A stretch of DNA of 64,000 bases from Lytechinus pictus (Eukaryota): contig NC_087251.1 of the NCBI RefSeq assembly GCF_037042905.1, positions 49,291,358 to 49,355,357 of the forward strand, written 5' to 3'. The stretch's first letter is position 1. Each line of letters opens with the position of its first letter. A program made the position numbers and the translations under genes. This document shows positions 4,488 to 63,700 of this stretch, piece after piece. A model generated the notes under the pieces. That model was not told where the DNA came from. It worked only from the letters and a program-made list of their open reading frames with translations, and searched no databases.

Positions 4488-7400
4488 TTGGACAGGCAAC
4501 GCCAAATTTCAATTAGGCACAGGTGTCCAGCGTGCTGAAATAATGAGGTCTAGTTTTTCTTATGCATTATGGCTCGACTTTTTTTCCCCAACCTGCCCCT
4601 TTTTGTCCCAATTAGCACAATATTAATTCTAAGTAGTGTTATGGTTGTAATATTTTTTTTTAGAAGGGGAGGTGAAAAAATAATAGTAAGAGAGGTAGTA
4701 GATGACAGCCATTGAAGATTGGAGTGGCAAATAGAGAAGAGGAAGGAGAGAGGGAGAGAAGGAGAGAGAAACAGACAGAATAAGAGAAGGGAGAAAGAGA
4801 AAGGGTGAAAATAGGCAAAGAAAGAAAAAAGGGAGTTCATCATACAGGGTGAAAATGACAAAGTTAGTCTGAAAATGATAATTGGAGCTTTAAAAAAAGT
4901 CTTGAATGAAAAGCAATTTAGGAGTTGTAACTTCCAAATAAAAACCTGTCCTTTTATCAACCATTATGTACATCACAGTATTTCATTTCTGTAGTCTGTA
5001 CACACATAACACTGTTAATGTTCACACGTAAACTTAAACATTGAAAAAGGATCATATCTGTATTAAATACGCTTCCTTGTCACATCTTGGCACCCCCCCT
5101 CCGATGAATGTGATATTTCTACTGTCACCGAAATTACTGGAGCCCTGTGGCTACATTGCACCATGGGACAGACGAAGATAATTTGCGGGTGAGGGGTTGC
5201 ACACAAGATAGATCTGTTTTTTCTTGCATATCTGTATTGTTTGCATACACGCATTAGGAGAGGGTATGCTCTTAAGTCAGTGTATGTGTATATTATGGCA
5301 AACTAACAGGATTATTAGCCGCCGTTTTGGAGGATTTAATCGGGCATCAGGCCACTCAGGCGAACAAGCAAAGGGAAAGAAAGTTGGAGAGGGCAAATCA
5401 TGCAAGCAATTTTCTAAATTGCCAGCCTATGGGATTATCGGTCCATCCCATTTGAGAAATTAAAAAATGGAGGGAAGGAGGGGTGGGGTGCCAAAATCCA
5501 GCTCATACAGAATAGAAAATTCAAACTCATGACTTTTTCCTCTTGTCTTTTTTCTTTAACTCGTCATCAAAATCGGCTCCCCACTCTCTTTTCCTCTGTG
5601 TGGTATTTGTTGAACAATACACGGGAGGCGGACCTACACACTTTACATCCGAAGCAGCAAGCCGATGTATTATTACCGTTGATTATTGCTGCGGCCCATC
5701 TCATTGTAAACTTGATACGTATGTCTATGAGCTTAACACCTACAGTGAAAGAAGAGGGAGCAAATGTAATAAATTGATTGGGGCCGTGATTGCTTTATTA
5801 TCTCCAGCTCATTGGGAAGCATTGGGAGAAATCCCTAATCTTGTACATGGACTATCATTTCGGGATTTAGGCATAAATGGGAAGGTAATTGAATTGCGGA
5901 TTTGATTCTGATCTCATATTTGTATGTGAAGGCTTCAGGCTGATGGGCAATGCCCAAGTTCACCACGGTGTAATGGATCTATTTTGTTTTCGCTGTGGTC
6001 TTTTCCTTTAGCTGTCCAGTTTAAAACCTCAATTCTGTTGAACTGATGATGAAAGAAATTTAGTCCAATTAATTTGTACATAAATTTTGTACATCAGATC
6101 ACATATTTATGAATAAAATTGGCTTAGGAGAAACAATGCTCATTATAAGGGTATTTCATGCATTCAAATGTTTCATAAAGGAGACTTCCATGATTTGGCT
6201 TTCCCCAAAGGGGGTCGCCAATAAACTATGATTTGATGAGATTATCATTTTAAAAATTAACTGAAATAATTTAGAAACTCTACAACAGACAAACCTCAGT
6301 TTACATATTACATCAGGATTTACCATTATTTTATCAAATGCTTATTTGAATGGGTTCATAGTTTGTAATGAAATTTGTTTATAATGGTATCATCTACACT
6401 TCTTTGAAGAAATGACAAAATTGAGAAATATTGTTATTTGTAGAGTTTAGAAAGAACTTGGTCAATTCTACCATAGATGGTTGATCAATACCCTTCTTGT
6501 TCAGGGAAGAGGACGGATCATATGTTATTAATAGTATACAATGGAAACTAGGTACATGAAAGGAAAAGTCTTTAAAGAGTAATATTTCCTGTTCTTCCCT
6601 TGTCCAGGCTGAGGGAGCAGGTGTTCTGTTGGGGGGTAAGTGCATAATCATTGGTTGGATGATGTGTGAACGAAGCACCCCCTTAGCACTGAATTAGCAC
6701 TATCGTAGAGCAGCTGTGTACAGAGTACATAAGAACAGACCAAAGGGGTCAACCGCAGTCAGAAAGTCAAACCCACCGTGACACTGGATTCACTTTGCCC
6801 AAGAATGTCGGCGGCTCCCCCGCTTGCTAACAAGCCCCATGTCCAGGAACAAAAACGCCCCAGAGTTGTGCTAATAAACCTTGAAGCTTTGTACAAGCAT
6901 GGACGGTCCATGGTACAAGAGGGGTGCACTTCTCCCAAGAAGTTAAGAGGCGGGTGGAAAGAATAGAGGGAAAGGGGAAGAAATTGTTTTATGTATTTGT
7001 GCAGGAGAATTGTGCCGCAATTGCTCTCGGGTCTTATTCAAACAGAGGGTAAGGAGAGAAGGAGGGAGAGGTGCATGAAGAGGATTGCGCAAATAGGGGT
7101 AGAGAGAGAGAGAGGGAGGGAGGTAGTGGGCATGGGTGCGTAGGGGGTGCAGAACTGCGTGGTAGCAAACCCAGCTGCCTGCCAAAGTTGACAGAACAAA
7201 CACCAGAGAGATGGGAGTTTGCCCTCCATGAGTGAGCTGGGTTTGGAAAATAAAGTGAGAGGGAGAAGTCAGTCGCCAGTTAAATCTCCTGAAAAAGTCT
7301 GAAGAGAGAGAGAGAGAAAGAGGGAGTGGAGGGGTGGGTATAAAAGAAATGAAATGAGCGAAACAAAACCAGTGCAAGCTTGTAGAACATGGTATCACAC

Positions 7401-8538
7401 AATGCCCTCCAAGTATGTGTCCAAGTACAACAAAGGTCCAAATGCGGATTAGCCACCTAGTCAAAGCCGAAGAAATCACAAACGCTCACTCAAGGCTGTT
7501 TGTCCTAGGCTCAGAAATCAAGTTTGCGAGCAGGAAGCCAAGTCATGGGCCCCCTGCGCTAAATTAAAAAGTGGTTTTAACTGTTTATTCTGAAATGCAA
7601 TACCAGTTCAAAGTTTTTTAGGATCGGTATCGGTTGTAAATTCCCTCCATAATCTGGCTATGACACGACAATGGAATTTGCTCCTTTGTCCGTCTGGCCT
7701 TTGTGGTGGGGGAAAATAAGCGGCTGGTTTCATTTCAATCAAAATTTGAAACATTTCAAAGCTGGACTATTCATAGGTAATACAAAACATCAATATTCCC
7801 AGAATGTATTCTCACTAACTCCTTATATCATAGAAAATAAAGAATTAGGAAAGTACAGACTTTTGAATTTCACCTTGTGTTCCATTTAAATTCCAGAGCC
7901 AAGGTAAATTAGAATCCAAAACTCATGAAGGCTTTTATAATCCCGAGTCTCTTTTAAAAATTTATATTTGGTTGGTAAGTCTATGGAATTAGTATTTGAT
8001 ACTCATAAGAAATATATAAGGCCTATATTCCACCTGCTTTCCCTTCTCTTTTTTTTACATTGGTTTTTTTTCCTCTCATCCCATATTATGTTATGTATCT
8101 GACATTTACATTCCTGGCTTTAAAGCGATAATAACCTTTCATCATATGAAATGAAAATATTAAAAACAATATATATATATCCGTTGTTGTAAAAAGGAAA
8201 TCCCTACAAATATGTATATTGTTTGTTCCACAGGCATGAGTACTTAGCCTCTTTGTCTAGTATCATGTAAAACCATATGGTCAAGTATAAAAGCAATACA
8301 TTATTGCTTACATGGGGCACAGATGTGATTTTGTTCAGTATGAAATGCAGGTATACATGAGTTAAAATGTCATAAAACCCAATACCTTTATCAGGGTTGA
8401 GCTGGTAAATCCTGGATTTTTTTTTTTACTCTGTGCCATATTTTATTATTTGGTAAAAAAATGAACTTCCTGTCCTTCTTGCAGGTAGGTCATACTGAAG
8501 GCAGATGAGATGCAAGCCTTTGGACTTGCCCATGAGGA

Positions 8539-18800: not shown

Positions 18801-21800
18801 TGGGGAAAGTGCAGTTGAGCAGAAGGATATCTTGACTCATCTTCTCTTAGGAGATTCAACTAGGGACGAAAAAAAAAAATATGTAGGCCAAGAAAATAAA
18901 TCTTTGGATCCGTTGGGAATGACGTTTTTGAGATATTTGGGTCTTTTGTGAAGCTGCACATTTATGACTTCATATTGTTCTTGTATGGAGAGTGAAGCAG
19001 CCGGATTAGAGTGTATAATGTTAATGATCCCTGTGCGTAGAAGAGAGAGAGAGAGAAATAACGAGAGGGAATGAAAGAGAGAGAATGAATTTTACTGTTG
19101 GTGGGCCCTGTGCATAAAGAGTTGCAATTAATTATGTATATTGTAAAGCTTATGAAGTGTGCAGCAATCGGTGGGATAAACTCGTGGGGGTCATTTAGCC
19201 AGGGGTCTTTCAGGCAAGCTATAGCTCCCTCAGAGCCAGGGATGAATAACAAGAAGATGTTTAGTGATATCTAGGATGAAGGTTGGATGATTTAAAGAAA
19301 GATTGGGGAAAAAGGACAAAATGAAAGAGTGTATAAAAATTCACTCGAAAACTTTTTTTGTTATTTTCATTCACCTATTTATATATTTGTTCATTATTTT
19401 ATTTATTTTATTATTATCATTATCATTATTATTATTATTGTTCTATTTTGTGGGGGTTGGGAATGGTTTGAATGCAAAAGGCCCTACCCCTTTTTATAAA
19501 AGGCAACTTTTTTTCTTTAAATTATAATGAAGGGAATGAAGGAGTTGGAGGGGAAAGAAATGGAGGATAGAAATGAGATGAGAGTTGGAATGATGCCATA
19601 GGTGAAAGGAAAGGAGTCCAGGGGAACACAAAGCTTAGTGATCGATCCTTGGGCTGAATTTTGCAATTGATCATACATAGTAAACCATGCAATCAATCGT
19701 AACAATCAGCCCCATGAACAATTACTGAGCTTCATGTCACAGGGCCTTGGTATGTTGATGAGAACGTTTTGCTCGTTAGCCATGTCTGGCTGCATGTACA
19801 ATAAACCCTCACCTATATAGCCATAGAACTCACCATGATCTCCATTCACTTTTTGGCTTCATCAGTTTCTCAGTACCTTCACACGAACACAAGATTTACC
19901 AAGCCTCATCCTGCATTCAACCATCTCTCTTCCTTCTCTCTTTCTCTTCTTCTTTCTCTCTATCTCTTTAATTCTCTCACCCATCTCTTACCCACTCTAG
20001 GCTGTAAAAACATTTGTTACCTTCTTCTTCCCCTTGTTTTCCGCAGATTGACTTTCTCGCAATTAAGTTAGCGCGTTGACTGGCGGGAAGGTCGGAAAAC
20101 GCAAGGAAAAAGGCATTGGGGGTGGCTATAGGCACAGGGGCTCTCTTTCTCACTCTATCTCTCCCTTTAGATTCACGTGTACGTAACTCTTGCATTTAGG
20201 CGCTTGTCCTTTTCCTCTGCCATATTTCCTGACAAATTGGGAGGGAAAGGGAATCCGTAATTTCATAGAGACCGAGCGCTGTGGCTGCTACAGCATCATC
20301 AGCCGCCTGTAAATTGCATTAAAATTCACTTAGCTTGAATTTTGTGGACTCAGTCAGTGTACTAATGGCAGGGATTTTTGATTGATTGCCTAGGTGAAAA
20401 GAGGATATGATCCCTTTCTTGTGTTTGTATCAAAATTTTACTTTCATCGTTTATATAAATCCATTTTTTACAGCCAGGAGGAGGGTGATTCAATACTCTA
20501 AGCATAAAGTAACACCAAAAATAGATGGATTTGATTTTAACCCCTCTGTCTCCCCCCTTTTCATGTCCTTGCAGCCTGTTTTGAAACCTGCTCCCATCCC
20601 CCTGCCCCCGTCCCCCCTGCACACATTCCTTTCAAACCCTTACACTTTCCTTTCCCCCTTTTCAATTCACCCCTTTCCCCTCCATCCTCACCCCATCATT
20701 TTCAACACATGACCAAGCTTCATTCATTCAGGTCTTATAGATAAGCAATCTTCTCTTATATTATAAACCCACTCACTCTTCACAGTTCTAGTCATTATTG
20801 TTTGCAATTGTAGATCATTTGAATTGTGAGAAACAGGATGAACATTCCACATATCATGTTTATTACACCTCTGAGGAAATTGTAAATAATTACTCTTGAA
20901 TGATAAGTCTTGGACACCAGCATTGCCTGTTCAGTTCAGTTCATTTACTTTATTAATCTTTCTTTCTTTCAAAGTTCAGATAATGTTTCATAAAGCTTTT
21001 GAATGAATAGGACTGAATAAAGGTCTCCAGTATGGCTAGCCCATTGTGATTCTCCTTGATATTTAAACAAAAAATGAGCAGAAATTTCGATTTTTGTCAA
21101 ATTGTCAGGAAAAATGCGCAAATGACTAGTACTTGTTCAAGTTGTTTGAAAGTTAATTACAAATTGGCATGAATTCTCTCCCTCTTTGCACTCATTATGA
21201 ATATTATCAATTGTAAACTCCAAACAATTCAGAGTCTTAGTGATAATAAAAAATACATTTCAGATTATATTCGATGTTCTTCATTTTATTTGAGACTTTG
21301 GTATTAATATATATGGGCCGCTTCTCAGATGAAAAGTAGGGCTTATGTCTTTAGATGTTCACACAAATTCTATGACGCTCTTGAATTTCTTTCTTGATTT
21401 TTTTTCATCAAATCTGTATATGATTGTTATATCACTGTATATGGTGTACTTTCTCAAGTTAGTTTTTGAGAAGATGTGTAGTGTGTCTGTTTCCTTATTG
21501 GAGCTTAGAGGAACAGTGTTTTTCTGCTTAATATTATACTGCTGCGGTTTTTTCACTCTTCCCCTTTTTCATGCTCATATATACCCAGACTTTGTGCATA
21601 AGCACGCAACATGCAAATCCTACTATGCACAGATAGACAGGGACATGATTCTTTTCTTTTTTAATGAAATTTATGCAGAATGTAACATGGATATAAGAAT
21701 CTATGAGAACATTCTATGCAGGAATTAAGTCTTGAGATTTGAGGGTTATCAAATTGTTAGTAACACCCCTGAAGCGCTAAACTGGGTCCGAGCATCAACT

Positions 21801-24295
21801 TAATTGGATTTTGTACAGTAATGGCTGTGGATGTATGCTATAGCATGGGTAATACTACGTGCAATTGAAGACAAAAATGCAGATATTTACATGATATCAA
21901 TTCAGTTTAAAAATGGTATTTATTGACTTGAAATGTATACTCCTATTCACAAGAGAACCTGTATAATTTATATTTTGTTATGAGCACTATATCATTACTT
22001 GCAGCTTAAAGTTTGCAATTTGTTCAATGTAAAGGGCTATTAAAAAGACAGATGATGGTGAAGGAAGAGTTTTGCTCCAATTGGTAGGCCTGACTTCTGT
22101 CTTGTTCATCTAATTTGAGGAAAATAATGAGAGCATAGTTATTCTAAAAGAAAAAAAATGTGGCCAACTACTTTTTTTAAATTCATGTACAATATTGAAT
22201 AGAGAGAATTGTATTACTAAGCATTTTCAAAACCATGATATTTAAAATAATAATCATGCCATAGGCCTGCTCATTATTTTGTTGTATCAAGAAATATTTA
22301 TGTTAAATATAGTACTATATTAAAAAAAAACACAATTCATGAATGGTTCAAAAATTAAAGAAATGGGGTGGAAAATTAAAGTGTCTGCCTAATTTTAAGT
22401 CCTGAAAAGATGCATGTTATTTGTTTTATGAAGAAATATTTGTTAAGGGAGTAAAAGGTTTTCATATTTTTATTTCAAATGATAGACCTGTGTATAAAAA
22501 GCCCAGGATTAATTCAGCCATGCAAGTATTTTGTAAGTGCTTACTTGGACAGTTCAAACTAAAAAATATTGAAGAAATGGGTTGGAATGCACGTGATCGA
22601 AAGATGAAAGTGTCCACAAAACTGACAAAATCTAACACCACAAAAATCTTGAAGCAAAATGAGAGTGGTGCATGCTTGAATGAGCTGTCAGTGGGAGGAA
22701 ATGCAGTGAGGAAATCACAAGTTAAATCCTGGAAAGCCAAAAGTCGTTATGACCTCAATTCTTCTCTTCGTCAAAGTGAAACGGTGAGGAGTAAAAGGCG
22801 TGAAAAAATCCCGCTGATGAAGAGTGGCAGTTCTGCCATAGATCTGCAATCTGAAATGTAATTTCCGTCTTATTTCTGGTCTTCTTTCCGTTTTATGGAT
22901 CTTATGTAGCTGTTTGTGTTGCATCTTGATTTAGAAATCCTCTTTTGTGAGAGCAATATTTTAATTTGATATATTGAGTCATTGACTCTACGTGATATGC
23001 TTATATCTGGGGCGATGTTGCCTTTCTTTCTTCTCAAACTATTGGATGATCCGAAGTTAGTGATTTCTTACAAGAATAGATTACAATTTAGCTTACAAGC
23101 AGATGTAATGATTGCAAAATCTACTAAATCAAATTTACCATCAAATATAGTTCTGTTTGATTGATATTTCAAAAATAAGTAGTAGTATATATTTTAGGGT
23201 AAATTCATATTTTATTAATAGGTCTTTGCCTCTTGTCAGGTAAGTGCACCTTCATTCTCTTAGCATTAACCAGTACAGCCTTGCGTTGATTTTAAAGTAA
23301 TTTGCTATATTTTAAAATTGTTAAACTATTTATTTATCAAATTTCCTTTAACATGGACACCTTGCTGCACACTGAAATTTACTGTTTCTTTTGATATTAT
23401 TTTAACTCGAAGTAATATTAATTATGTTCTTATCTACACAAGAGATTTACTACATTTATATTTCCATCACTTGACCCTTGCTTCAACTACACCACTCATT
23501 TTCTGCTTTTGTTCATTGTTGTTCATTTAGCCCTATTTGTTTGTTTCTGTATTTTGATTTCAAACATAATTGTAGAAAATCAATTTATTGTCATTTCTAT
23601 CAATTGCATTTGGCATTTTATCAATGTTAATTCAATTTATGTTTAATCTCTCACCATTGTATAATTGTATACTATTTCTGTTGATTTTTTGCTTGTAATT
23701 GAACATTTTCAGCCTGTGAGCTGCCTGTTTGATTTTTTTTTTTCAATAAACCAATTTAATTCAATTCAACAAATCAAAGTACTTCCTTTGATCTCGTTTA
23801 TCTGAAAATGAACACAATCCACAATTTCCACAATTTGTAACTATACCTATTCTACATAAAGCAAATATGAAAGATGTGTTCCCTTGTAAAAACAAAATAT
23901 AAGAAAGTAAAAATAAAAAGAAAGAAAAAGAGTCCAAGAAAGAATGAATCAGACCGTGCGTGACAGAAGAGAACCTATTCAAGGTTAGAGATAGAAAGAA
24001 TAGCCAAAAATAAGTGATCATGTGGTGCCAGCCACATAGTCATCATAAACGTCAAGAACGATGCAAACATGGCTGATCATGGATAGACCCCCCCCCCTGT
24101 TTTTCGTGCAATTTGAACGTGTTTAGAGGTCTATTGTTTTACATGCAAAATGACATATTTTCATTTTTTTTGTTTAGGCCTATAGAGATTCCATATTTAT
24201 GGTTTAGTCAACTTTGGTTACAAACACTTTATAAGTTATCTAAATAAAGGAAAATGCACCTTTGAAGGAAAGTACTCTATCCTTGATGAATTCTT

Positions 24296-24390
24296 CAAAG
24301 CTGTGAGCAGCAGAATCATAAACTAGTTTAGGCAGGGTAATATAAGAGAGCCTTGAGCGCCGAGCAAGGTGGATGTGTGCACTAAACAAT
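24296..24390 (+). mobile_element. 3' fragment of the tRNA-SINE family seen at 35241
   Basis: aaagctgtgagcagcagaat...gggtaatataagagagccttgagcgccgagcaaggtggatgtgtgcacta aligns by eye with the reverse complement of about 35262-35356. Confidence 0.7.
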
Positions 24391-27300
24391 AGAATTTGAT
24401 ATCCATTCATTAATTGCAATCTTTCAAATTAAGGATATTCATTGAATAATCTGCTATCAATTGGTGAATTATGAAAGAAATAGGCCTTCAAATATATATA
24501 TTTTTGAACTAGGAGAGTCGTCACTGTATTTTAAATTAAGTGAATCTGTTTTCCTTTTGTTGCTGCAAACCCATTGACTAATAGATAGCAATGGATTGGT
24601 ATTTAAAATGAATGACCCACTGGATAAGGCAATATTGAGAATTGTCTTGGATCACAACTGTACTATCCTTGAGACTGTCAAAGTCAACACAGTAACATTG
24701 GTATTCTTGACAAAGTGCAGAAATGCATTAGAAGTCAAAATTATACTCATGTCATTCTGACTAATACTTCTTACATAATAATAACTGAAATACAGCCCTG
24801 TGTGGAGCAACGTGAAGTTATAAAGAAGAAAACAAATAGCGTGGGGAAAGGGGAAATTTAATAGCAGTCATTTCTTATCTCTCTTTCCTGTTTCTTAGCC
24901 CCTTGAATAGGCAGTAATTACTTAATCCCTTTGAGCTAGTTTCTGAGTTGTGGTCATCATATAGGGTACACGTGCCAGAGTACTTTTGGAGTTGCATCTC
25001 CACCTTTGCAGATCTTCTGGAACTTTACTTTAGTGAACAATGTCAGTTCCTTGGTTTGGACTGACTCTTGAATTAGGAGATAATTTTTTATTTTGCTTGA
25101 TTTTCTTAGTCTAATAGAGTTATGAAATATTATGTTTTAAATGAGATTGTTGTACCTACGCCTAGTTGTAATTGTTTTAGATTATTTCCTAATTTGTAAA
25201 ATTAAGGATGGGGTTTATATATAGGAAAGTACATGGTGGATTGATCATTACATGGTCTATTGATATTTGAGAATGATGTCATTGATCAGAAAAAAAATAT
25301 AGCCATAGTTAGTATGTTAGTATACAACAGCCAGAAAAAAGATGTCTACATCTAACTTAGATCAATGGAGTGATTTAAGAGAATGATTGAAAAGACTTAC
25401 AAATCCAACGGTTGTAATTCAAAACCAACAAATGGATCCGGATGAGGTTTTTCTGACATTGTTATTAAAATTCAACATTATAGCTAATGAAATTGTGTTC
25501 TTTTATTTATTCAAGTAAAAACTATGGACAAGTTGTTGTTTTTAGAAGGGAAGCAGTAATTGAAATTTTTCATTTTGAACAATTTCAATATATTTTGTGT
25601 GTGGGATATAGGCTAAAATAATTATTGTAATCCTTATCCTATTTGTAGGCCTGGTTAAATCAATTGGGAAAAGTTTTCATGAAAATATGGGTACAACTCT
25701 CTTCGTGCCCTCTTCTGATATCAATCATTTCCAAAACAAGTACAAGTGCGTATGACCTGGTATATGAATATTTCTACTAGAATTAAACAGTTGACTTCCT
25801 TTCTATTAGAGTGCAAATATCAGGGGTGTCTTAAATTTTGAAAAGTCCATTAAATCAAGTCCATCAGTTTAGGTTCATGCACTGTGTTTATCTGACTTCG
25901 GCACGAATTGACCCCCTCCCCCGCCCACCTCTGCCCCCTTTTTCACCCCTGCTTACCCCTCCCAAACCTAAAAGTGGAACGACAAGACAAGAACCACGTA
26001 CATAATAGTTCTATGTGTATTCCTGTTGCAGTCATTATTTCTCTCAGCAGAGCGGAGGAAATGTCAAATAGGAAAGAATGTGTCATCTAATCTCCTGGCC
26101 TTGACCAAAATTGGCCCAGGGGCTATGATGTGCGTTGCTCTCTGCCTCCGAAAAAAAAAGAGAAAGAAAGACCCCTTGTCTTAGCCCCAACATTTCTTAT
26201 AGTTTCCCCTCATTTACCTTTTTTCCTCCCCCCCCCTCCCCCAATTTATCACCCCATCCTCAGATTTATCATAGGTTGTTTATGAATGGAGGAACTTGTA
26301 ACTGACATTGTGGGGTTGGACGTCCTTTCCGCAGAGCCACAATTTCACTGCAGGTGTAAGAATGACTGTTAATGCCCTCAGTGCCAGGTATTGGCCACTG
26401 TAGTGGAAGAATAGCCTATCCATCTAGTTTTCAATGCATCTATACTATTTTAAAAATGAGATAAGGTTTTCTCCTACGCGTTTGCTTCCTTCATAACGAA
26501 GTATAGGTATTGCTGTCACATCTCATCTTCCCATCCTCTTATCTATCATCTTACAATAAACTGTCTTATTTTATTTTGTGCTATTTATATATCCCCTCCT
26601 GTTCTGTTCTTTGTTGTGTGTATGCATCATAAGAATTTACCAATTCATGAATTTGCAATAGTTTTCTCAAGAGGCTCTCTGCTCTCTCTATCACTGTCTT
26701 TCTTTCTATCTCTCTCAATCACTGTCTTTCTTTCTATCGATCTCTCTCTTTGTCTGTCTGTTTCTCTCTGTCTCTCTCTTCTCTTCCATCCACCTTTACC
26801 CCCATTCTCACTCTGCTCCCGTCTCCCTTTGCTGGTGTTAGACTCTGTGATTGATAGGCCCTTGTCTTTGTCTAATGACTCTGTGGCATCTAATGGAGTA
26901 TTACTGCAGCCACTTCTCCTGCAGTGTTCTCATTGATGCGGTATCTCCCACTCCATATTACGCAGTCCATCTTATGGACGCTTGGTGCATGCATGCGAGA
27001 GTACTACGTAGCCATTAGCGCAGGAACTCAAAATTGACTCTACGAGAAAGCAGGGATAAATGCCCTTTGAATCATTAACCGATTGTTTTGCCATCTATAG
27101 GTCTGAAGAGTTGAACTTAAAAGAAGAAAATGGTGATGGTGAGATCTCAGATCCGAGAATAGAATTTTTGTGAATTGTTACATTTGAAATGGTTCCAAGT
27201 TTTAGGTTTCTCTAGATGTCTGAAGATTCATTGAAAATTCATCACCCCCCCCCAAAAAAAAATGAAGACCTACCCATTGGTTAACCTGATCACAAAGACA

Positions 27301-28495
27301 CTGGACTTGAAGTAGACTAAATACTGTTACTGCCTGATATATTGTGATGTATATTGTATCTATGGTGGCCAGGGATGGTATTGCAAAGCACTGTAGTTCG
27401 TATCTCATCAAGAATTCCTAGTATTATTGTTATTAAAATCGTTTTTATTAACACTGTAATAGCTTTTCCCCTCTCCATCCATACCCCTCTGACTCTGTCA
27501 AACTATCTGATGGTTGTACACCACATCGCTTTTTGAGACGTCAGAGAGCATGTTAGTGGGAACATGCCTAAAACTCTGTACAGAATCTCTCCTCCCTCCC
27601 CACTTTCCCTGCATACATTAGCCATTCAGCATACTCATTACCGCAAATTCTACACATCTCACTGCCTAATTTACTTAAATTTTTTATGAGTTCTACGCTG
27701 TTTACTAGGCTCATCACGTTAGTCACGCAAAGAACAAGTGAATAATTTACCAGACAATTTGCACACTCTTTGACACACATTTTCTTAGCGCTTCATTCCA
27801 GATTTTGCTTTCATAACCCAACAATAGTATTGAGGTTGCATATCAGCTAATTATGGTTGGGAGAGTTATTGAAAGTGGGCAGATTATTCAACTTTATGAT
27901 GTAAATGCATCAAAAGTGTGACCTTAATATAAATTGGTTAGGAACTTAACAAAAGAAAGGGACAAGAAAATGAAACCAGCAGAAAAATTTTGAATAAGTT
28001 TCTTTTACATTCTTTGCTAAAATTAAAGTTGGGGATGAAATTAGTTAATTTCATACCTTCACTCATTATAATGAAATTATTGATAACAATATCTATACTA
28101 TACCACTTATACCATGGATTTGACTAGAACTAAGATCCACTGTATAAGAAGCGAAAGTCTTATACATGTAGCATATATATGAAAGAAATCATGGGCATAG
28201 ATATGCGACATCATGCTATTCAAGTTGAGGAGGGGGGTGGAGTAATAGATCTTCCCCCTGAACAATAGTTGTGATGCAAGGATTTATGCCAGTGAAAGAA
28301 ACTCATGATACATTTAAAAAGCGGACTAAAAACTTTTTCAGTCTTATTGACTATTTCCATATGATGTTTCTAGATTTGTACTTATACAGACTCCCTGTTT
28401 GTGTATTCTGTCTAAAGTCAATGCTCTTTATATCTTATGAAAAGGCAGTTTGTGAATAGATCATTATTTCTGTTTTTTCCTTCATCTCATTACAG

Positions 28496-28679
28496 TCATC
28501 ACAATCTGGTAGCCAGAATCCCGCCCACACCCCTCTGGTAGGCGGTGGGGGAGGTGGCCCCAATTCAGTTGGCTATGGACCGCCCGATGATCTTCAGTCC
28601 AATCCCGGCTCAGATCCGCCCCCTCTCACGAATGTGATGTCCTCAATACATGGTGGAGGAGATAATGGAAGTGAAACAG
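28496..28679 (+). CDS. Meis: Meis/homothorax internal coding exon (equivalent to vertebrate MEIS exon 7; linker before the homeodomain)
   Basis: Acceptor tgttttttccttcatctcattacag| and donor acag|gtaagg. 184 nt, phase 0 in and phase 1 out. Translates SSQSGSQNPAHTPLVGGGGGGPNSVGYGPPDDLQSNPGSDPPPLTNVMSSIHGGGDNGSET; the end resembles MEIS1 HSGDNSSEQ and joins in frame to the exon at 60630. Not in the ORF track. Confidence 0.9.
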
Positions 28680-29182
28680 GTAAGGTTTAGTTGCCATGAC
28701 AATTAGGGAGCCATTTTCATTTGGGAGTGTTTGCAGATATATTGGTTACTGTATAGCAAATTAATAAGTGATGATTTTTTTTGTTACAGTTTTTCATGAA
28801 ACAGACTTGATAGGGTTTTACAGCTTTGGTCAAATTAAGAAGTACACAGGCTACCCAGTATTTCTCATGAATGCTCTGTATACATTTCAAAGTTATGCAG
28901 TTTTAGCCATCTACCTTCTGATGACTAAGGTTTAACAAATTAGTTTTACAGTAACATATTGAAGCATGGATTTGATTGTTAAAGACAGTCAAATGGTAGT
29001 GGTTCTGTGTTGTCTCATGCAGTTGTGTGTTCAGAGATGTTTTCATCCGGACCATCTTAGAATGCACGGGCCTAACCATTGGATACCAGATATTTTCACC
29101 AGACCAAGATGCCTAGAGTATTTTGCATCATTGACAAACACAGATAGTGCTCCACTCCTACTGCTGTTATTTAAACTGTGAT

Positions 29183-29742: not shown

Positions 29743-30454
29743 ATAATGGTTTTAAAAATGGAGGCAAAAAATAGGAGATGAATGAATATTAGAGCTGAGC
29801 TGTAAGGTTTGGATTTCAAAGGTTCATTAGGAGGAGGTTGCCCTGATATGGAGTCCTGCACATGTATTGAACCATATAGAGAAGTCAGTGAAGTATGATT
29901 ACATCAGGCCAACGGTTAAAGATCTCATTTTAGTTGTTTACTCCCACAGTTCCTCATCATGCCAATCTATAATTCACAGATTGCTTATGATATATTATGC
30001 ATACTAGGCTGTGCCTTCTCAAAATTTCATATGGAGGAGATCAGGGTTTGTCCTACTTATTTTATAGAGCCTTCTCAATTAGATGGTTTATTCATGAAAC
30101 AAGTCTTGAATGATCTAGATCACGTTTATCTCAGATAAGCTTTTTTCATTTCCTTTGAATTTAGTTCATATACAATAAAATATCTTTGCTGGTGGTTCTG
30201 CAGTATGTATGGATAGAGTACTATGAAATGCAAATGAGAAATGTCAAGATTATTGTTTCCTTTGATAGCGTCTCATTGGCAGAGACTAGCCACGATCACC
30301 CTGTCTTGAAGATGATGCAGTTGTCTTGAGTCATTCGTGGTGAGGCGTCCATCCATCAATCATCCCCCCTCACGACTCCCCGGGGTGTGGGCCCAGTTAA
30401 TGAGAATGCAGCATCTCCTGATGCCATACCGGTCCTATACTTGTATTGGTGCAA

Positions 30455-45610: not shown

Positions 45611-48600
45611 TTGAATTTGGAAATGTTCATTTGAAGCATACTGATTTAAAATTATTTTCAGTAAGATTTTTTTATATAATTTTGCAGGTATGTTTCTGAC
45701 AGAATTCTACCAATTTGGTCAGCATATTTGAAAGAAGGACACTTATAATTTTTTTTGGCCTTTTTTTGGAACTATTTCAATCTTGTGGGATTAATAAGAT
45801 GCTGCTTTCAACCAACATATAGGTAAAAGTTATTCTGTTATAGAAACATGTATTAAAACAAAACAAAAGGAATTGGAACATGTTTTTCAAAGTACAAGAT
45901 TTACATTTTTCATTTTTTCATAGCTGCCATAAGATATGCTGATAAATAAAACACCTCAGCAACGAATTATGAGGCTGTTATATAATTTGTCTCCCTCTTA
46001 ACGTGAAAGGCACGCGGACATGTGTGTTTTTGAGAGTTTCGTCCTTACACACGTCACTCCGTGCAAGGGATCCGATGACATTTATGCACCTCGAAACCTA
46101 TTGGGCATTTTGCCAGGTGCCGGAAGGCCACAAAAAAAGTCTGCCAAACCCGAGCTAGTTAAATAAATTTCATCATTACTCGGTGCAGAAAGCCAGAAAA
46201 CCACCCATAAATTGAGTTATGAAAAACTAATTAGCACGAAAAGTGCAGATAACACTATATAGTTTAGTGTTACCGGAAGATGGTCTCCTGGAATCTAATT
46301 TAGAGCAGCCCCTTTCCCGGGCAGATAGAAAATTTGGGAAGTTGGGCGATTAAAACATCATCAAGATAGAAAAATGAGAGGAGAGGAAGGGAGATTTAGT
46401 GTTTTTGCTAGATTCTGATAAAGAGGCAGAAAATATAGGATGATGCATGATGGATAGAGACGTTCACTTCAAACTTAGCTATCAAAAATTTCCATAAATT
46501 TGGATGTAGACTTTTCAGAAAGAGCCGTGGATTCAATTCATATTTCCTTTTCTCAGGGTTGTATGGATCAGAGGCCTGTTCAGTGTATGTTATTCCATTG
46601 GATTCTGAAATATTTCCTCAAACTAAGCTTCTCTTTTTAAGTTTTGGTAAATCCTCCCACCCCCCTAAAAAAGTGTTCTGTCACTATTCCAGTTCATCGT
46701 TAATTTATATGAATGTGTACATGTCCCAAACTTTCATGTGTGCATGGTATGAAAGAAAATATGTTCCAGAGGTTGCATTTTGTGGTTTTACCCAATTTAT
46801 TTGTATCATTATCCTGACCATATTTTCTCTTTTCTTTTTCATGTAGACCATTCCATTCAAGCATAGAATATACTGGAGATGTCAGGATATAATCTTTTTG
46901 CTGATATACAGTCACTAAATTTATAAGGTTGCAGTCAAAGCAAGACAGGCTTTTAAAATTCTTACCTATGTAGCTATTTACCAATTACAACACATGTAAA
47001 ATTAATCAACAATATAAAATAGTAATATACAGTATTCATAAGGGGTCCTTTTTTTTTGGGGGGGGGTGGGGGTATTGTTCATACATGCTTTGTATCATGT
47101 ACCACGACCTATCCTCTGTGAAGTCGTTTGAAAGTCAACCAGTGATTACTCATGTAGAGTGAAGAGATTATTCCAATTCTTTGCATCTGTCTTTCTAGGA
47201 ATGTAATTGATAGTCAATCTAGAAATAAAGATCGCAATAGAATTAGAATATTTAAATTCAAAGACCTCTTTTAAAAAGCTATATTTTCTACAGGGCTATT
47301 TTGTTTATGATGTAGATTAAAACAACATACCTCTCCACTTGGCTCTACTAATTGTTATCGCAATATATTGAAGATAAACACTTCACAGCTATTTTGTAAT
47401 CATCAATATGATCCAATTTGCTTGTTTTGCAAGAAAATTATTTCCCCTGAATATTATAAAAATTGACTCCCTTTAAAGTGTATTAGAGAAAGCTTAGCTT
47501 CACTTCACATCTGAACTTCAGGATGAATTAATTAAAGATGACTTATTGATGAGCTCTTGCAATCTAATTGCTGTATCAGACTAATGTCTTAAACACATGT
47601 CTCCCCCATCACCGCAAAATATGATGCATTTCTTTCCATTTGCACTCCTACTTCATCGTACAACTGCTGCGAGAAAGGAAAAAAAAGTTAATATATACTT
47701 CCAAATTATGAGATGAGATGTGGAGTATGTGACCATGCATAGTGTGTGGAGAATTAATTATTTTTTCTTTCATATTTTTTGTAAGACAGTATTCTATAAC
47801 TTTCTTAATATACTGTACATTGTAGGTTGGTCAACTAATTCCACAGTGTTTTACAGTAGAAATCAAATATCCATATTTTTTTTTCTCTTCTTTTGAATAA
47901 GACTTTTTATGGGGGGGGGGGGTGGGGGCAACTTTGGGCTTCTTTTTCTTCATAGTATATCAATTAATTATTGCTTTTTCCATCATCAATTGATATGAAA
48001 TTTTGAGATAAAGCGAAGTATAGAAGAATAGTAATACTATTGTGTTATTATTTAGTGGTAATTATGGTGTCTTATAAAAGATTTTCACCAATCTTTGTTC
48101 ATTAAAAATCAATGGGGTATTATAATTTGTGACTAATGTAAGATTAATTATATGCTGATAAAATAATCAAATCTACAGTTTTCCATTTAATCATATTGTT
48201 TTCTCATGCATTTTATCATCCAGTGATAATCTGGCATTTTCACAAGTTGTATTGTTCTTATTTAGAAAACATTAGTGACACATTATGGAGTCACCTGGTG
48301 TATCAAAATGATGCATCTGATCCAATCATTCCTCATCAGTTTCTTGGAGCAGGCAGGGAAGGGGTGCTTAGACTTGTTAATCCACCCCCTATTAATCCCC
48401 ATCTTCCATTATGTAATCTTTTGTCTGTGATAAAGCTTTATCCATATTGAATTGTCTCATATACTGATGATAGGTATATTAAAAGGATTATTGTCTTACA
48501 TGGATGGTAATGACTGGAATTTTGCTTTTCATTGATGCCTTATTGACACATTATATTCATACATCCAATATCGATGATGAGTAAAGCTATGCATTATTGG

Positions 48601-59725: not shown

Positions 59726-60629
59726 ATGCCAATGGTTATGTATTTTAAAATCACATCCCAAATAATCTGAATTTAGCCCCTCTTTCCTTTTATTTTATTA
59801 AGAATGAGAAAAGGTTGTAGTCGGCCACAAATTGCTTCCAACATCTTATTTTCTTAGCTCTTCACGGGCAATGGACATGGAGGGAAGATGGGGAAATCAT
59901 TGTTTGTTGAGAGCAAGCTTAAATTGCTTGTTTTGTGTTTAATGAAAGTCGTCCTCTTCACTATGTAGATCTAAGATTTTCTTCATCTGCCCCTGTTGGG
60001 GGAGTCGTGTGTAATTAGATGGAATGAAAGTTTGTCTTTTCAGACAATGCAATTGACTCTTATATTGGTGTGATTTCTTTAGAGTTTTTTTCCCTATTTG
60101 ATAATGATTGAGTGAATTTTCAGTGGTGATTACTGATTGGTCCCTATTATTCAAAACATTACGAAGTGTAAGATTTTCCAGAAGGACATTTGATATTTTA
60201 ATTTATGATATTATTATTATATTTATTTGTTTTGTCAAAACTGAAATTGTTGAAATGAAACAGCATATACTGTCTACTGTTAACTGTGACCTCTTGAATC
60301 TCTTCTATTACTCTGTAATGTAAAAAGATTTGATCTACTTTATGATTATTTTAACCACTTTTGATAAAATGTGGTTAAATGACAGAGATTATGTAGAAAG
60401 AATATTTAAATCATGTCCGGAGTATAGAATAAATTCATAAACTTGTAAATGTAATACAACATGAATTCAACTTTGCAAACGTCATGCAGATCTCATGCAG
60501 TGTGAAAGGCATTTTGCTTTTCAAGCTGAACTTGCTTTGATTTACGCTTCTGGTGTAAAATAGCCATCTCTGTTTGATTATTCATTTTAACCTAAATTTG
60601 TATTAATTCATTGTTTTCTTTTATGATAG

Positions 60630-60778
60630 ATGGAGGATTAGAGAATAGTCTTGGCTCAGGAGATGGAACAGGAGAAGAAGATGATGATGACAGACTAGCC
60701 AAAAGACAAAAGAAAAGAGGTATCTTTCCCAAATCAGCTACCAACATCATGAGGGCGTGGCTATTCCAGCATCTCACG
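60630..60778 (+). CDS. Meis: Meis/homothorax coding exon with acidic patch and TALE homeodomain N-terminal arm/helix 1 (equivalent to MEIS exon 8)
   Basis: Acceptor ttgttttcttttatgatag| and donor acg|gtgagt. 149 nt. Translates (D)[49 protein letters not shown], nearly identical to MEIS1/2 [23 protein letters not shown], with the conserved intron just before HPYP. Confidence 0.97.
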
Positions 60779-63700
60779 GTGAGTAGTATATATCCCTCTT
60801 CAGCTATAAGTGCAGCTCAAAGAGGGGTAAATTTCTTGCTGATGAAAATGGGTATAGCAGAGCTGCCAGTAGTTGCAAACACTGTGTTGTTATGAAAATG
60901 TGACAATTACGAAAATGCAATAGGGCTTCCAACAAAGTCTGCTACCTTCATGTTGGGATTGGTTTTTATCTCATAAAGCAACTAAGCATTCCCCTAATGT
61001 GTTTAATTGTTGCTATGTCAGGCAAATCATTCCCAACATACTTATTATATTGCCACATTACCTCCTATCAGAGAATCAAATGAGTATAGTTTATCTCATA
61101 GGATATGTTATTCCTGCTAAATCAGGCAAAGACTTGTGCATTGCATACTGACTTTTAGAGAATTATTTAGAATTGTAGAGTTCATTTTATTTTTGCTTTG
61201 AAAGTTTTGCATATTCATGTTAGATATAATTATGATCTACATTGAAAATACATTTTTGAAGTATGTTGTAGTCGGCTTTTCTCTCTATTACAACTGATTA
61301 GAAATGTAACAATCTACTTTTGTATACTATTCTCTCATTTTCAAAATTTTCAAAGAATTTGAAGCGGTACTTGTGATCCCTTTCTCAAAATGCTTTGACC
61401 CAGTTCTGTCTGTAGAGGGGTATGAAAATTAAAAAACTGACATTGTCCTTGCCACGTACAGATCGTGGTTATAATACATGTAGTTTGAAAGGACAGCAGT
61501 CTTTATGGTGTACATAAATTCCCTTTAAAAGAGTATGTGTATGATGACAAGGTGAATTGCAGTAGCGGGTTCAGTTTACCAGGCTGTGGTAACCATGCAA
61601 CACATTAGCATTAGGAGCTTTGATGAATTGAAAAGGAATAGTTAACTAAAGGCTGTTCATTCTTCATTTGTCTGCTTTTGTTGTTGTCATACTCTCCCCC
61701 CTTTCTCCTCTCCCGTGCCCTAGACAGCTAGCTATAGCCAGGCTTTCTCTCTTTGAGTTCGGTTGCTATCCTCTGGATTCGCAACCCATAAATCATCCCG
61801 TCTGTAATAATTGAAATGCTGGGTCGGTTGGCAGGTAGGGTAAACATAGTGAAATGGTACGTCCAATAGGATCAGACTCGTAGGCACCAGCCATGGTAGG
61901 CCCTGTATTAAAAGCACACACTCATTTTGTTTTCATGGGATCCACTCCATACTTCCCCCCTCCCTCCCCTTTTTCCTCCGTCTTTCCTCCGTCTTTCCTC
62001 CCGTCCCTCCCCTTCCCATCGATGAGTCGTGAATAAAGCATCTTGGAAAGCATCCCACCGTGACTTTGCGCGCCGAGCGGCTTCCCAGATCCACGGCGTC
62101 GTCCCCCCGTGCGAATGCATCCCTGATCGAAATTAATGCGCATACGATTTCGTCCTGTCGTGGGCTTGCCCGTGAGTCTATTAACAGGCAGACAGAGCAT
62201 ATTGTACAGTATGATTGTTTTTTAGCTGGAAGGTGTAGAATTTTGACATATCCATGACAAGGTCCTGACAAGGGGATTTTTTTTTAGATGATCCAGGGGT
62301 TGGTCGGTCAAAAAGAAGTTACCATGTTTTCAAATAATCATAACTCTGACCAAAACAAGTCTGCATTCTCTAAGATATTCATGAATTTTGTTAGAATAGA
62401 ATGGTTATATTAAATCTTTTTTTCTTTTTTTGAGTGTATCAATAATCAAATGCAGATGATCGCATTATAGGGTATCTCCAATTTATCTCTTCTTGTCCCT
62501 TTCTATATGCATTTCTCACCACATTCTTACCCATTCTAAGAACATTTCAAGTGAGTAACACACGAGAAAAGCCTAAATGATTCTCTTTTCTTTGTCAAAT
62601 AGTAAGAAATCACTCTTAACTCTTCTCTTAATTTGAAGAAATATTATTAACAATTCATATTAAACAAAGGTACAAAATTGAAAAATATGCTTGCGATTTT
62701 CCAAGGGACGTTCAATTCGTAACGCCTAAAAAATGTTCTAATATGAAGGAAATGCCCAGAAGATATCTTAATTCCCATGCATCCAGAGGTCACTCACATT
62801 TATTTTTGTTGGATTGTAACCAAAAAATACTTTCCCTTTCTGATCATTTTGCTGTAAAGTTTTGTGTATATGCTTTCTCTTCCCTGCTCTTTCTTCATCT
62901 TTGTCTAGCTTTCACTCTGTCTTTCCTCTTTACTAATTGAAAATTTCTTTCAATGACAATAGAATATTGCTCAATTCATTAATTTTAGTTGAAAATATGT
63001 TGATTTTATTCCTATTTTCTTTGTATTCTTTATTTGTATCGTTTCATGTACATGACCCTTTTCCCTCTGTTTCAAGGCTCTTTTTCTTGTTGTGTCTTCA
63101 TGCTGTCTTTCAGTGCATTTTTCACCCGTCTCCTTGCCCCCCCTCTCTCTCTCTCACTTTATTGCTTCCTTCAATTCCCTCTCTCTTCTTACTCCATGTC
63201 CCCTCTCCCCTATCTCTTTCTCTCACCCCCAGCTCTCTCTTCCTCCCTAACTCTGTTTTATTTATTTTTCTTCCTATCATATATTTGATATCAGGGCATG
63301 TATGTCTGATAGCACACCTCATTTCATGTTTGACCTTCTTTTTTTACTCCTCTAATTCTTCTGTTTCCTGTCGTCCTCCTATCATGCCTCTCTAGGAAAC
63401 CTCTTTTTACGTAGTCCTCTGTAAATTTCTGCTTAAGAAACGGAGTGCGACCACCGCAAGACCTCCGCAAAACTATCAAAAGTTGAAATATAGTTCATCT
63501 ACTAATAAAAAATGTGGTTATTATTTTTATCACATCATATCTGAAATTATTTTCATATTTTAATTCAAACCCCCCCCCCCTTTTGATAATCTTATACAGG
63601 TACTTTCCTTTTGAAAGGTTTGAAGAAAAAAATAACCTGTAATTGCTCCAAATCTATTTCCTTTGTCACTTGCGTCAAGATGATAATCATTGGTGCTTTA

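What the first reader, a model, noticed from the sequence alone, without database searches (positions are those of the whole stretch)
23222..23245. Best candidate recursive-splicing (ratchet) site: gtctttgcctcttgtcag|GTAAGT
Seen: on the Meis sense strand a pyrimidine tract plus CAG is followed directly by a perfect GTAAGT donor (junction 23239/23240), in apparently unique sequence 5.3 kb before the coding exon. Known: this zero-length-exon architecture defines ratchet points in long Drosophila introns (e.g. Ubx) and some long vertebrate genes. Inference: this Meis intron is removed stepwise. I know of no description of this for an echinoderm Meis gene, but could not search.
Basis: partly seen in the sequence, partly recalled or inferred. 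Interest (0 to 1): 0.75.

Follow-up and report, generated by a model that had tools for sequence, protein, structure and literature searches.

The report
Likely recursive splice site, unproven
A 46.5-kb intron of a sea-urchin Meis gene carries a fused "intron end / intron start" signal, with two or three similar ones elsewhere in the gene, so these long introns are probably cut out in steps as in flies, but the RNA data had no reads there to prove it.

Summary
The motif is real: branch-point-like TTAAT, pyrimidine tract, CAG|GTAAGT at 23239/23240, 41.3 kb into a 46,518-nt phase-0 Meis intron. It is the best of 1,354 AGGT sites over 234 kb on both strands; chance gives 0.05-0.08 per 100 kb. The three best sites all lie on the sense strand in Meis introns (also window 8484 and C7:49260773; 0.26-0.35 expected). 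Published work reports 8.2-fold sense enrichment of such sites in sea-urchin long introns, and a recursive site in the fly orthologue hth. Use is not shown: rRNA-depleted reads gave depth 0 at the site and almost no intron signal. Against: no convincing downstream cryptic donor, G at -5, conservation untestable, and the site is not clearly unique DNA (it abuts, and may lie within, a LINE-like 3' end). Verdict: probable ratchet point (about 0.55), a new member of a known kind. This scan noted similar candidates in other genomes (95 findings).

The parts
23214..23239 (+). Candidate recursive 3' splice site: branch-point-like TTAAT (branch A about 22 nt upstream of the junction), pyrimidine tract, CAG
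   Evidence: acceptor log-odds 5.5, against 3.4 and 1.9 for the two real Meis acceptors in the window
23240..23245 (+). GTAAGT: donor regenerated after splicing to the upstream exon (which ends CAG); also the donor of the rival microexon
   Evidence: donor log-odds 8.9, against 5.4 for the upstream exon's own donor
23222..23239 (+). Rival reading: 18-nt in-frame, stop-free microexon (VFASCQ in phase 0) behind a weak TAG acceptor at 23219-23221
   Evidence: acceptor log-odds -1.5; absent from 10 junction reads of X20 and from the X12 contig; 0 of 185 proteins hold the peptide
23294..23302 (+). Best downstream cryptic donor AAA|GTAATT (would close a 57-nt RS-exon); weak, and inside the repeat's edge
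   Evidence: score -0.2, between the median (-0.8) and upper quartile (1.0) of the best donor near random positions
23293..23788 (+). Dispersed repeat, probably the 3' end of a non-LTR retrotransposon (AATAAA plus short-unit tail, nested 5' truncations), same orientation as Meis
   Evidence: class inferred, Pfam gave no hit for the ORF upstream of copy L007
8465..8490 (+). Second candidate ratchet point in the same intron (cttcttgcag|GTAGGT, junction 8484/8485; no AG for 81 nt upstream)
28496..28679 (+). Meis coding exon downstream of the 46.5-kb intron
   Evidence: reads and contig join it to both neighbouring exons
45668..45693 (+). Weaker candidate ratchet point near the middle of the next, 31.9-kb intron (attttgcag|GTATGT, junction 45687/45688)
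   Evidence: rank 1 in 2 of 12 matrix variants, in the top six in 5 of 12
60629..60779 (+). Meis exon that begins the homeodomain (end approximate)
   Evidence: 4 reads of X19 join 28679 to it

Best explanation
The site is an intronic ratchet point. While the intron is being transcribed, the upstream Meis exon (ending CAG) is spliced to the AG at 23238-23239. [quoted passage not shown] With the site at 8484 the 46,518-nt intron would leave in pieces of 26,507, 14,755 and 5,256 nt, and the mRNA would look like one direct splice. Shown: the motif, its rarity, the gene structure, the direct join in mRNA. Inferred: every step of the stepwise removal.
For: Best of 1,354 AGGT sites; the top three all sense-strand inside Meis introns, the next (72.5) antisense outside the gene. 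Three sites at >=77.3 in 131 kb of sense gene against 0.26-0.35 expected under three null models, and 0 in 337 kb of antisense and flank. The same three or four sense sites lead the list under most of 12 matrices. PMC2773006 Table 2: sea-urchin introns >50 kb hold 0.540 sites per 100 kb against 0.066 on the other strand; my background rate at this site's score is about the same as that 0.066. Fly hth has a recursive site (PMC8605326). The segment sizes fall in the fly range of 2.6-63.6 kb (10.1101/006163).
Against: No junction read and no saw-tooth: depth 0 at the site, with almost no intronic reads anywhere, so the test had no power. Positions -6/-5 are T,G where 196 of 197 fly sites have TT, although real acceptors of this gene also show T,G. 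No convincing downstream cryptic donor. The site lies 89% along the intron, whereas fly sites tend to space evenly (PMC6110457). It may sit in repeat-derived, hence possibly young, DNA. The scoring matrices are recalled approximations and the 77.3 cut-off was set after seeing the data. The published enrichment is for another species and for introns >50 kb. Strict patterns found no site in the 140-kb Pbx intron, and genome-wide counts are modest: 32 against 16 and 19 for permuted donors and 48 for the reversed pattern.
Confidence: 0.55

Rival explanations
1. A chance motif without selected function, perhaps arisen in a decayed LINE-like 3' UTR that already supplied the T-rich tract. It is ignored, or used only as low-level stochastic splicing noise.
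For: Window 23198-23292 aligns in register with the repeat family at 45-54 identities in 98 columns; other copies have TTTTCTTATTGT at the tract and no AG|GT (0, 4, 11 and 35 of 1,000 shuffles reach the score for L009, L007, L006, L008). Weak downstream donor.
Against: Does not explain why the other top sites are also sense-strand and intronic. The repeat homology is weak: the start was chosen after seeing the alignment, a first test on 40-nt blocks was not significant in 12 of 12 comparisons, and unanchored local alignment was not significant (213 and 78 of 300 shuffles).
Confidence: 0.33
2. An 18-nt tissue-specific microexon (23222-23239) that adds VFASCQ to the linker between the MEIS domain and the homeodomain. 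GTAAGT is then an ordinary donor.
For: AG at 23220-23221 behind an A/T-rich tract; length a multiple of 3; no stop in phase 0; perfect donor. Sea cucumbers (34-35 aa) and crinoids (27 aa) have optional inserts at this junction.
Against: Acceptor log-odds -1.5 against 5.5. All 10 X20 reads with a loose end at 28493 give the upstream exon directly (agreement 0.99), as does the X12 contig, and no joints were listed; 0 of 10 still allows up to about 26% inclusion (hand arithmetic). 8 of 8 echinoid proteins spanning the junction read MDQ-SSQ; 0 of 185 proteins hold the peptide. tblastn of the holothurian and crinoid proteins showed no match to their inserts in the part of the output shown (cut at 6,000 characters).
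Confidence: 0.1
3. End of a longer poison or truncating exon from the AG at 23196-23197 (42 nt, stop in frame), removed by nonsense-mediated decay.
For: Perfect donor; Meis/hth genes make truncated isoforms (recalled; P0134 is such a model).
Against: Acceptor log-odds -4.9; no reads.
Confidence: 0.02

Closest known systems
Drosophila intronic ratchet points (Ubx, kuz, osp, fz, luna; Duff et al. 10.1101/006163, whole text read)
   Same: [quoted passage not shown]
   Different: No junction, lariat or saw-tooth shown here; T,G rather than TT at -6/-5; conservation not shown; possibly repeat-derived.
Drosophila homothorax (hth) recursive site (Joseph et al. PMC8605326, passages and section 8 read)
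   Same: Orthologous gene family (Meis/hth). A hth recursive-splicing reporter gave the skipped product.
   Different: In hth the ratchet donor is weaker than the RS-exon donor; here it is the reverse. Which hth intron holds the site was not seen, so positional homology is untested.
Predicted RP-sites in sea-urchin large introns (Shepard et al. PMC2773006, passages and section 6 read)
   Same: Same consensus (y)nncag|gtaagt; 8.2-fold sense enrichment in introns >50 kb.
   Different: Genome-wide statistics only; no gene named in the passages seen; no experiment; this intron is just under 50 kb.
Vertebrate RS-exons (Blazquez et al. PMC6224609, two passages read)
   Same: A donor regenerated at the exon-exon junction; sea urchin is included in their count of annotated RS-exons.
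   Different: Those are mostly annotated, expressed exons defined by a downstream donor; none is evident here.

Membership tests
Intronic ratchet point (recursive splice site) | AG|GT with strong acceptor and donor, juxtaposed | tested here: met
Intronic ratchet point (recursive splice site) | Sense strand of a long intron, not an annotated exon boundary | tested here: met
   46,518-nt intron; direct exon-exon join in reads and proteins
Intronic ratchet point (recursive splice site) | Junction reads from the upstream exon to the site | tested here: inconclusive
   depth 0 in bin 22917-23245 in 4 of 4 runs; about 6% of each raw run read; exon depth only 2-17
Intronic ratchet point (recursive splice site) | Saw-tooth intron coverage with a step at the site | tested here: inconclusive
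   raw runs cover 6, 6 and 5 of 30 bins, nearly all repeats or exon
Intronic ratchet point (recursive splice site) | Lariat starting at the regenerated donor | not testable with these tools
   no intronic reads
Intronic ratchet point (recursive splice site) | Conservation of the motif in related species | not testable with these tools
   no relatives held; organism B contigs do not cover the site; 0 matches in metagenome contigs
Intronic ratchet point (recursive splice site) | Cryptic RS-exon donor about 50 nt downstream (PMC8605326) | tested here: inconclusive
   AAA|GTAATT at +57 fits the spacing but scores like random DNA
Drosophila-type ratchet point | TT at -6/-5 (196 of 197 fly sites); a fly trait, not shown to define the class elsewhere | tested here: not met
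   T,G here; TT at 8484, 45687 and C7:49260773
Microexon (3-27 nt) | Frame-preserving, stop-free, AG before and GT after | tested here: met
   18 nt, phase 0
Microexon (3-27 nt) | Included in mRNA or protein | tested here: inconclusive
   0 of 10 reads, 0 of 8 echinoid proteins; tissues unknown
Neural (eMIC/SRRM4-type) microexon | UGC motif just upstream of the acceptor (feature recalled) | tested here: not met
   no TGC in the 60 nt before 23222

The most novel reading that the evidence does not exclude
Echinoid Meis carries a full ladder of working ratchet points in three successive long introns (7+12, 26.5+14.8+5.3 and 17+15 kb). Fly-style recursive splicing would then operate in an invertebrate deuterostome and on the same gene family as fly hth, and this particular rung would have been built from the 3' tail of a LINE-like element, showing how new ratchet points arise.
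Probability: 0.15. Interest if true: 0.6.

Novelty: new member of a known kind. Interest (0 to 1): 0.3.

Why it matters
If used, this would be a named, testable recursive splice site in an echinoderm. The searches found only a 2009 statistical prediction and a count of annotated RS-exons for sea urchins, and no experiment (the library lacks most subscription papers). It bears on whether fly-type intronic ratchet points are ancestral in bilaterians and were largely lost in vertebrates. The mechanism itself is known and the protein is unchanged, so a specialist would find it plausible rather than surprising.

Tried and rejected
RNA: no holder on record as RNA was listed; three raw rRNA-depleted runs and one contig set were laid once on 19298-29152 and had no intronic signal, so the blank is no evidence either way; 16 loose-end rows were not shown. 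Conservation: metagenome scan gave 0 matches; organism B contigs miss the site. Genome-wide strict pattern counts (32 against 16 and 19 permuted, 48 reversed; 71 against 108 reversed) cannot separate ratchet points from exon ends and repeats. An independent full scoring of the 140-kb Pbx intron could not be done; strict patterns, which match only 1 of the 3 top Meis sites, found nothing there. Ion-channel and nuclear-receptor searches gave no further long single introns that were used. The 151-aa open frame at 22406-22861 has no Pfam family, no atlas hit at 0.9 or more, no copy in fetched loci and no reads: treated as chance. hth was not found in 9 supplementary files of PMC6110457 held as text; the Joseph 2018 paper is not held and the supplements of the Duff preprint were not seen, so the position of the hth sites is unknown. 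Searches with loose term matching listed nothing on recursive splicing in echinoderms, Meis, or transposon-derived ratchet points; only listings were seen.

Full report
Observation. The sequence gtctttgcctcttgtcag|GTAAGT is at 23222-23245 on +. The gene is an echinoid Meis: the exon at 28496-28679 translates to a stretch identical to P0134, named by NCBI as a Lytechinus pictus homothorax-like protein. The MEIS-domain exons lie upstream on the same contig. The upstream exon ends MDQ at C7:49273334, so the intron is 46,518 nt, phase 0, and the site lies 41,262 nt in and 5,256 nt before its end. A TTAAT branch-point-like word puts an A 22 nt upstream of the junction. The nearer AG at 23220-23221 is probably too close to that A to be used (established rule, recalled).

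Is it more than chance? The 8-mer alone is not: one copy on each strand of the window. For the whole signal I scored all 1,354 AGGT sites in 234 kb around the gene on both strands with approximate, recalled splice matrices. Two Markov models and a half-site permutation give 0.05-0.08 sites per 100 kb at the site's score (0.07-0.11 per gene), and 0.26-0.35 per gene at 77.3, where three were seen; antisense and flanks (337 kb) had none. Under 12 matrix variants the site ranked 1-4 in 11 and 9 in one, and a fourth sense site, 45687 near the middle of the next 31.9-kb intron, joined the top six in 5 of 12. No strong site was found in the 24 kb between the last exons. So the single site is only moderately unlikely, but the gene as a whole shows a sense-strand set.

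What is in print. PMC2773006 (passages and section 6 read) reports 0.540 such sites per 100 kb in sea-urchin introns over 50 kb against 0.066 on the other strand, while donors alone are not enriched (25.6 against 24.4) and acceptors exceed by 0.46 per 100 kb. My inference: that acceptor excess is about the size of the ratchet-site excess, so hidden ordinary exons are an unlikely cause. If my score matches their threshold, as the similar background rate suggests, most sense sites of this strength would belong to the excess class. PMC8605326 (passages, section 8) describes a hth recursive-splicing reporter and the need for a cryptic exon of about 50 nt. 10.1101/006163 (whole text) gives fly intron and segment sizes and TT at -5/-6 in 196 of 197 sites. 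PMC6110457 (passages) says 63% of fly introns over 40 kb have a high-confidence site, evenly spaced. No experimental report for echinoderms or for Meis turned up (listings only).

RNA test. Three raw rRNA-depleted runs of the same species label and one contig set of a related organism were laid on 19298-29152. About 6% of each raw run was read; 39, 65 and 64 reads were laid, most on repeats. Depth in bin 22917-23245 was 0 in all four runs and the intron was almost empty, so neither junction reads nor a saw-tooth could be seen. This is a lack of power, not a negative. The exon was covered 2-17 deep. Ten X20 reads and one X12 contig join it directly to the upstream exon, and four X19 reads join it to the homeodomain exon. 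No joints were listed; rows need three reads, and 16 loose-end rows were not shown.

The AG at 23220-23221 turns the 'tract' into an 18-nt, in-frame, stop-free exon (VFASCQ) with a perfect donor. Sea cucumbers and crinoids do have optional inserts of 34-35 and 27 aa at this junction. But its acceptor scores -1.5 against 5.5, it lacks an upstream TGC, it is absent from the 10 reads, 8 of 8 echinoid proteins that span the junction read MDQ-SSQ, and 0 of 185 fetched proteins hold the peptide. The two other top sites offer no such exon: 8484 has no AG for 81 nt upstream, and the 21-nt stretch at C7:49260773 ends in a stop in frame.

Points against a selected ratchet point. The site has T,G at -6/-5; the other three candidates have TT. 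The best downstream donor, AAA|GTAATT at +57, has the right spacing but scores like random DNA. The surroundings are not clearly unique: a repeat runs from about 23290 to 23788 with 24 other matches. It ends in AATAAA and a short-unit tail, shows nested 5' truncations, and one copy follows an ORF resembling a LINE ORF2 end (resemblance recalled; no Pfam hit; atlas hits at 0.94 to unnamed clusters, nearest named PF09004 at 0.83). Other copies continue upstream, and window 23198-23292 aligns to that continuation in register at 45-54 of 98 columns; 0, 4, 11 and 35 of 1,000 shuffles reach the score. A first test on 40-nt blocks and an unanchored alignment were not significant, so this stays unresolved. 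If homologous, the tract was inherited from the element and AG|GTAAGT arose in place. Genome-wide strict counts show at most a modest excess (32 against 16 and 19; reversed control 48), and none falls in the 140-kb Pbx intron, although those patterns catch only one of the three top Meis sites.

Verdict. Most likely a working ratchet point (0.55), one of a small ladder that cuts the long Meis introns into 5-27 kb pieces; otherwise a chance or noise-level motif (0.33), a rare microexon (0.10) or a poison exon end (0.02). It works like a fly ratchet point on paper, but membership is not established, because the defining RNA features were inconclusive and conservation could not be tested. The mechanism is known and was predicted for sea urchins in 2009, so this is a candidate new member of a known kind, interest 0.3. 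Earlier notes of this scan list similar unproven candidates in other genomes and none near this place; they were not used as support.

Noticed in passing
Not covered by the read lay.
   Followed up: partly
window 30269-30309: Candidate alternative last exon (tttgatag| then ASHWQRLATITLS and stop) matching the end of predicted protein P0134: a homeodomain-less Meis isoform model.
   Followed up: partly
window 28652-29149: Contigs of organism B read through the donor at 28679 into the intron at depth about 27-53, against 211 for the spliced contig: possible homeodomain-less 3' end, or DNA in the run.
   Followed up: no
window 20170-20365: An organism B contig matches this intronic stretch with 4 differences in 196: possible conserved non-coding element.
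   Followed up: no
proteins P0137-P0143 and P0020, P0036, P0152-P0157 against P0012, P0013, P0031, P0158: Sea cucumbers and crinoids have unrelated optional inserts (34-35 and 27 aa) at the junction of this same intron; several crustacean-like hth proteins show inserts there too.
   Followed up: partly
L001:1645-1660 (G000:C7 near 49250545): Tandem donors 9 nt apart would explain the VHE insert that separates echinoid Meis isoforms X1 and X2; position approximate.
   Followed up: no
G000:C15:8665763-8806137: The PBC-domain (Pbx) gene has consecutive domain exons about 140 kb apart: a good independent test intron.
   Followed up: partly
window 22406-22861: 151-aa purine-rich open frame just upstream of the site; no family, no reads.
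   Followed up: yes
window 35379 and 36674 (- strand): Two copies of a repeat carry cccag|GTGAG on the antisense strand, showing that repeats here can supply moderate ratchet-like motifs.
   Followed up: no
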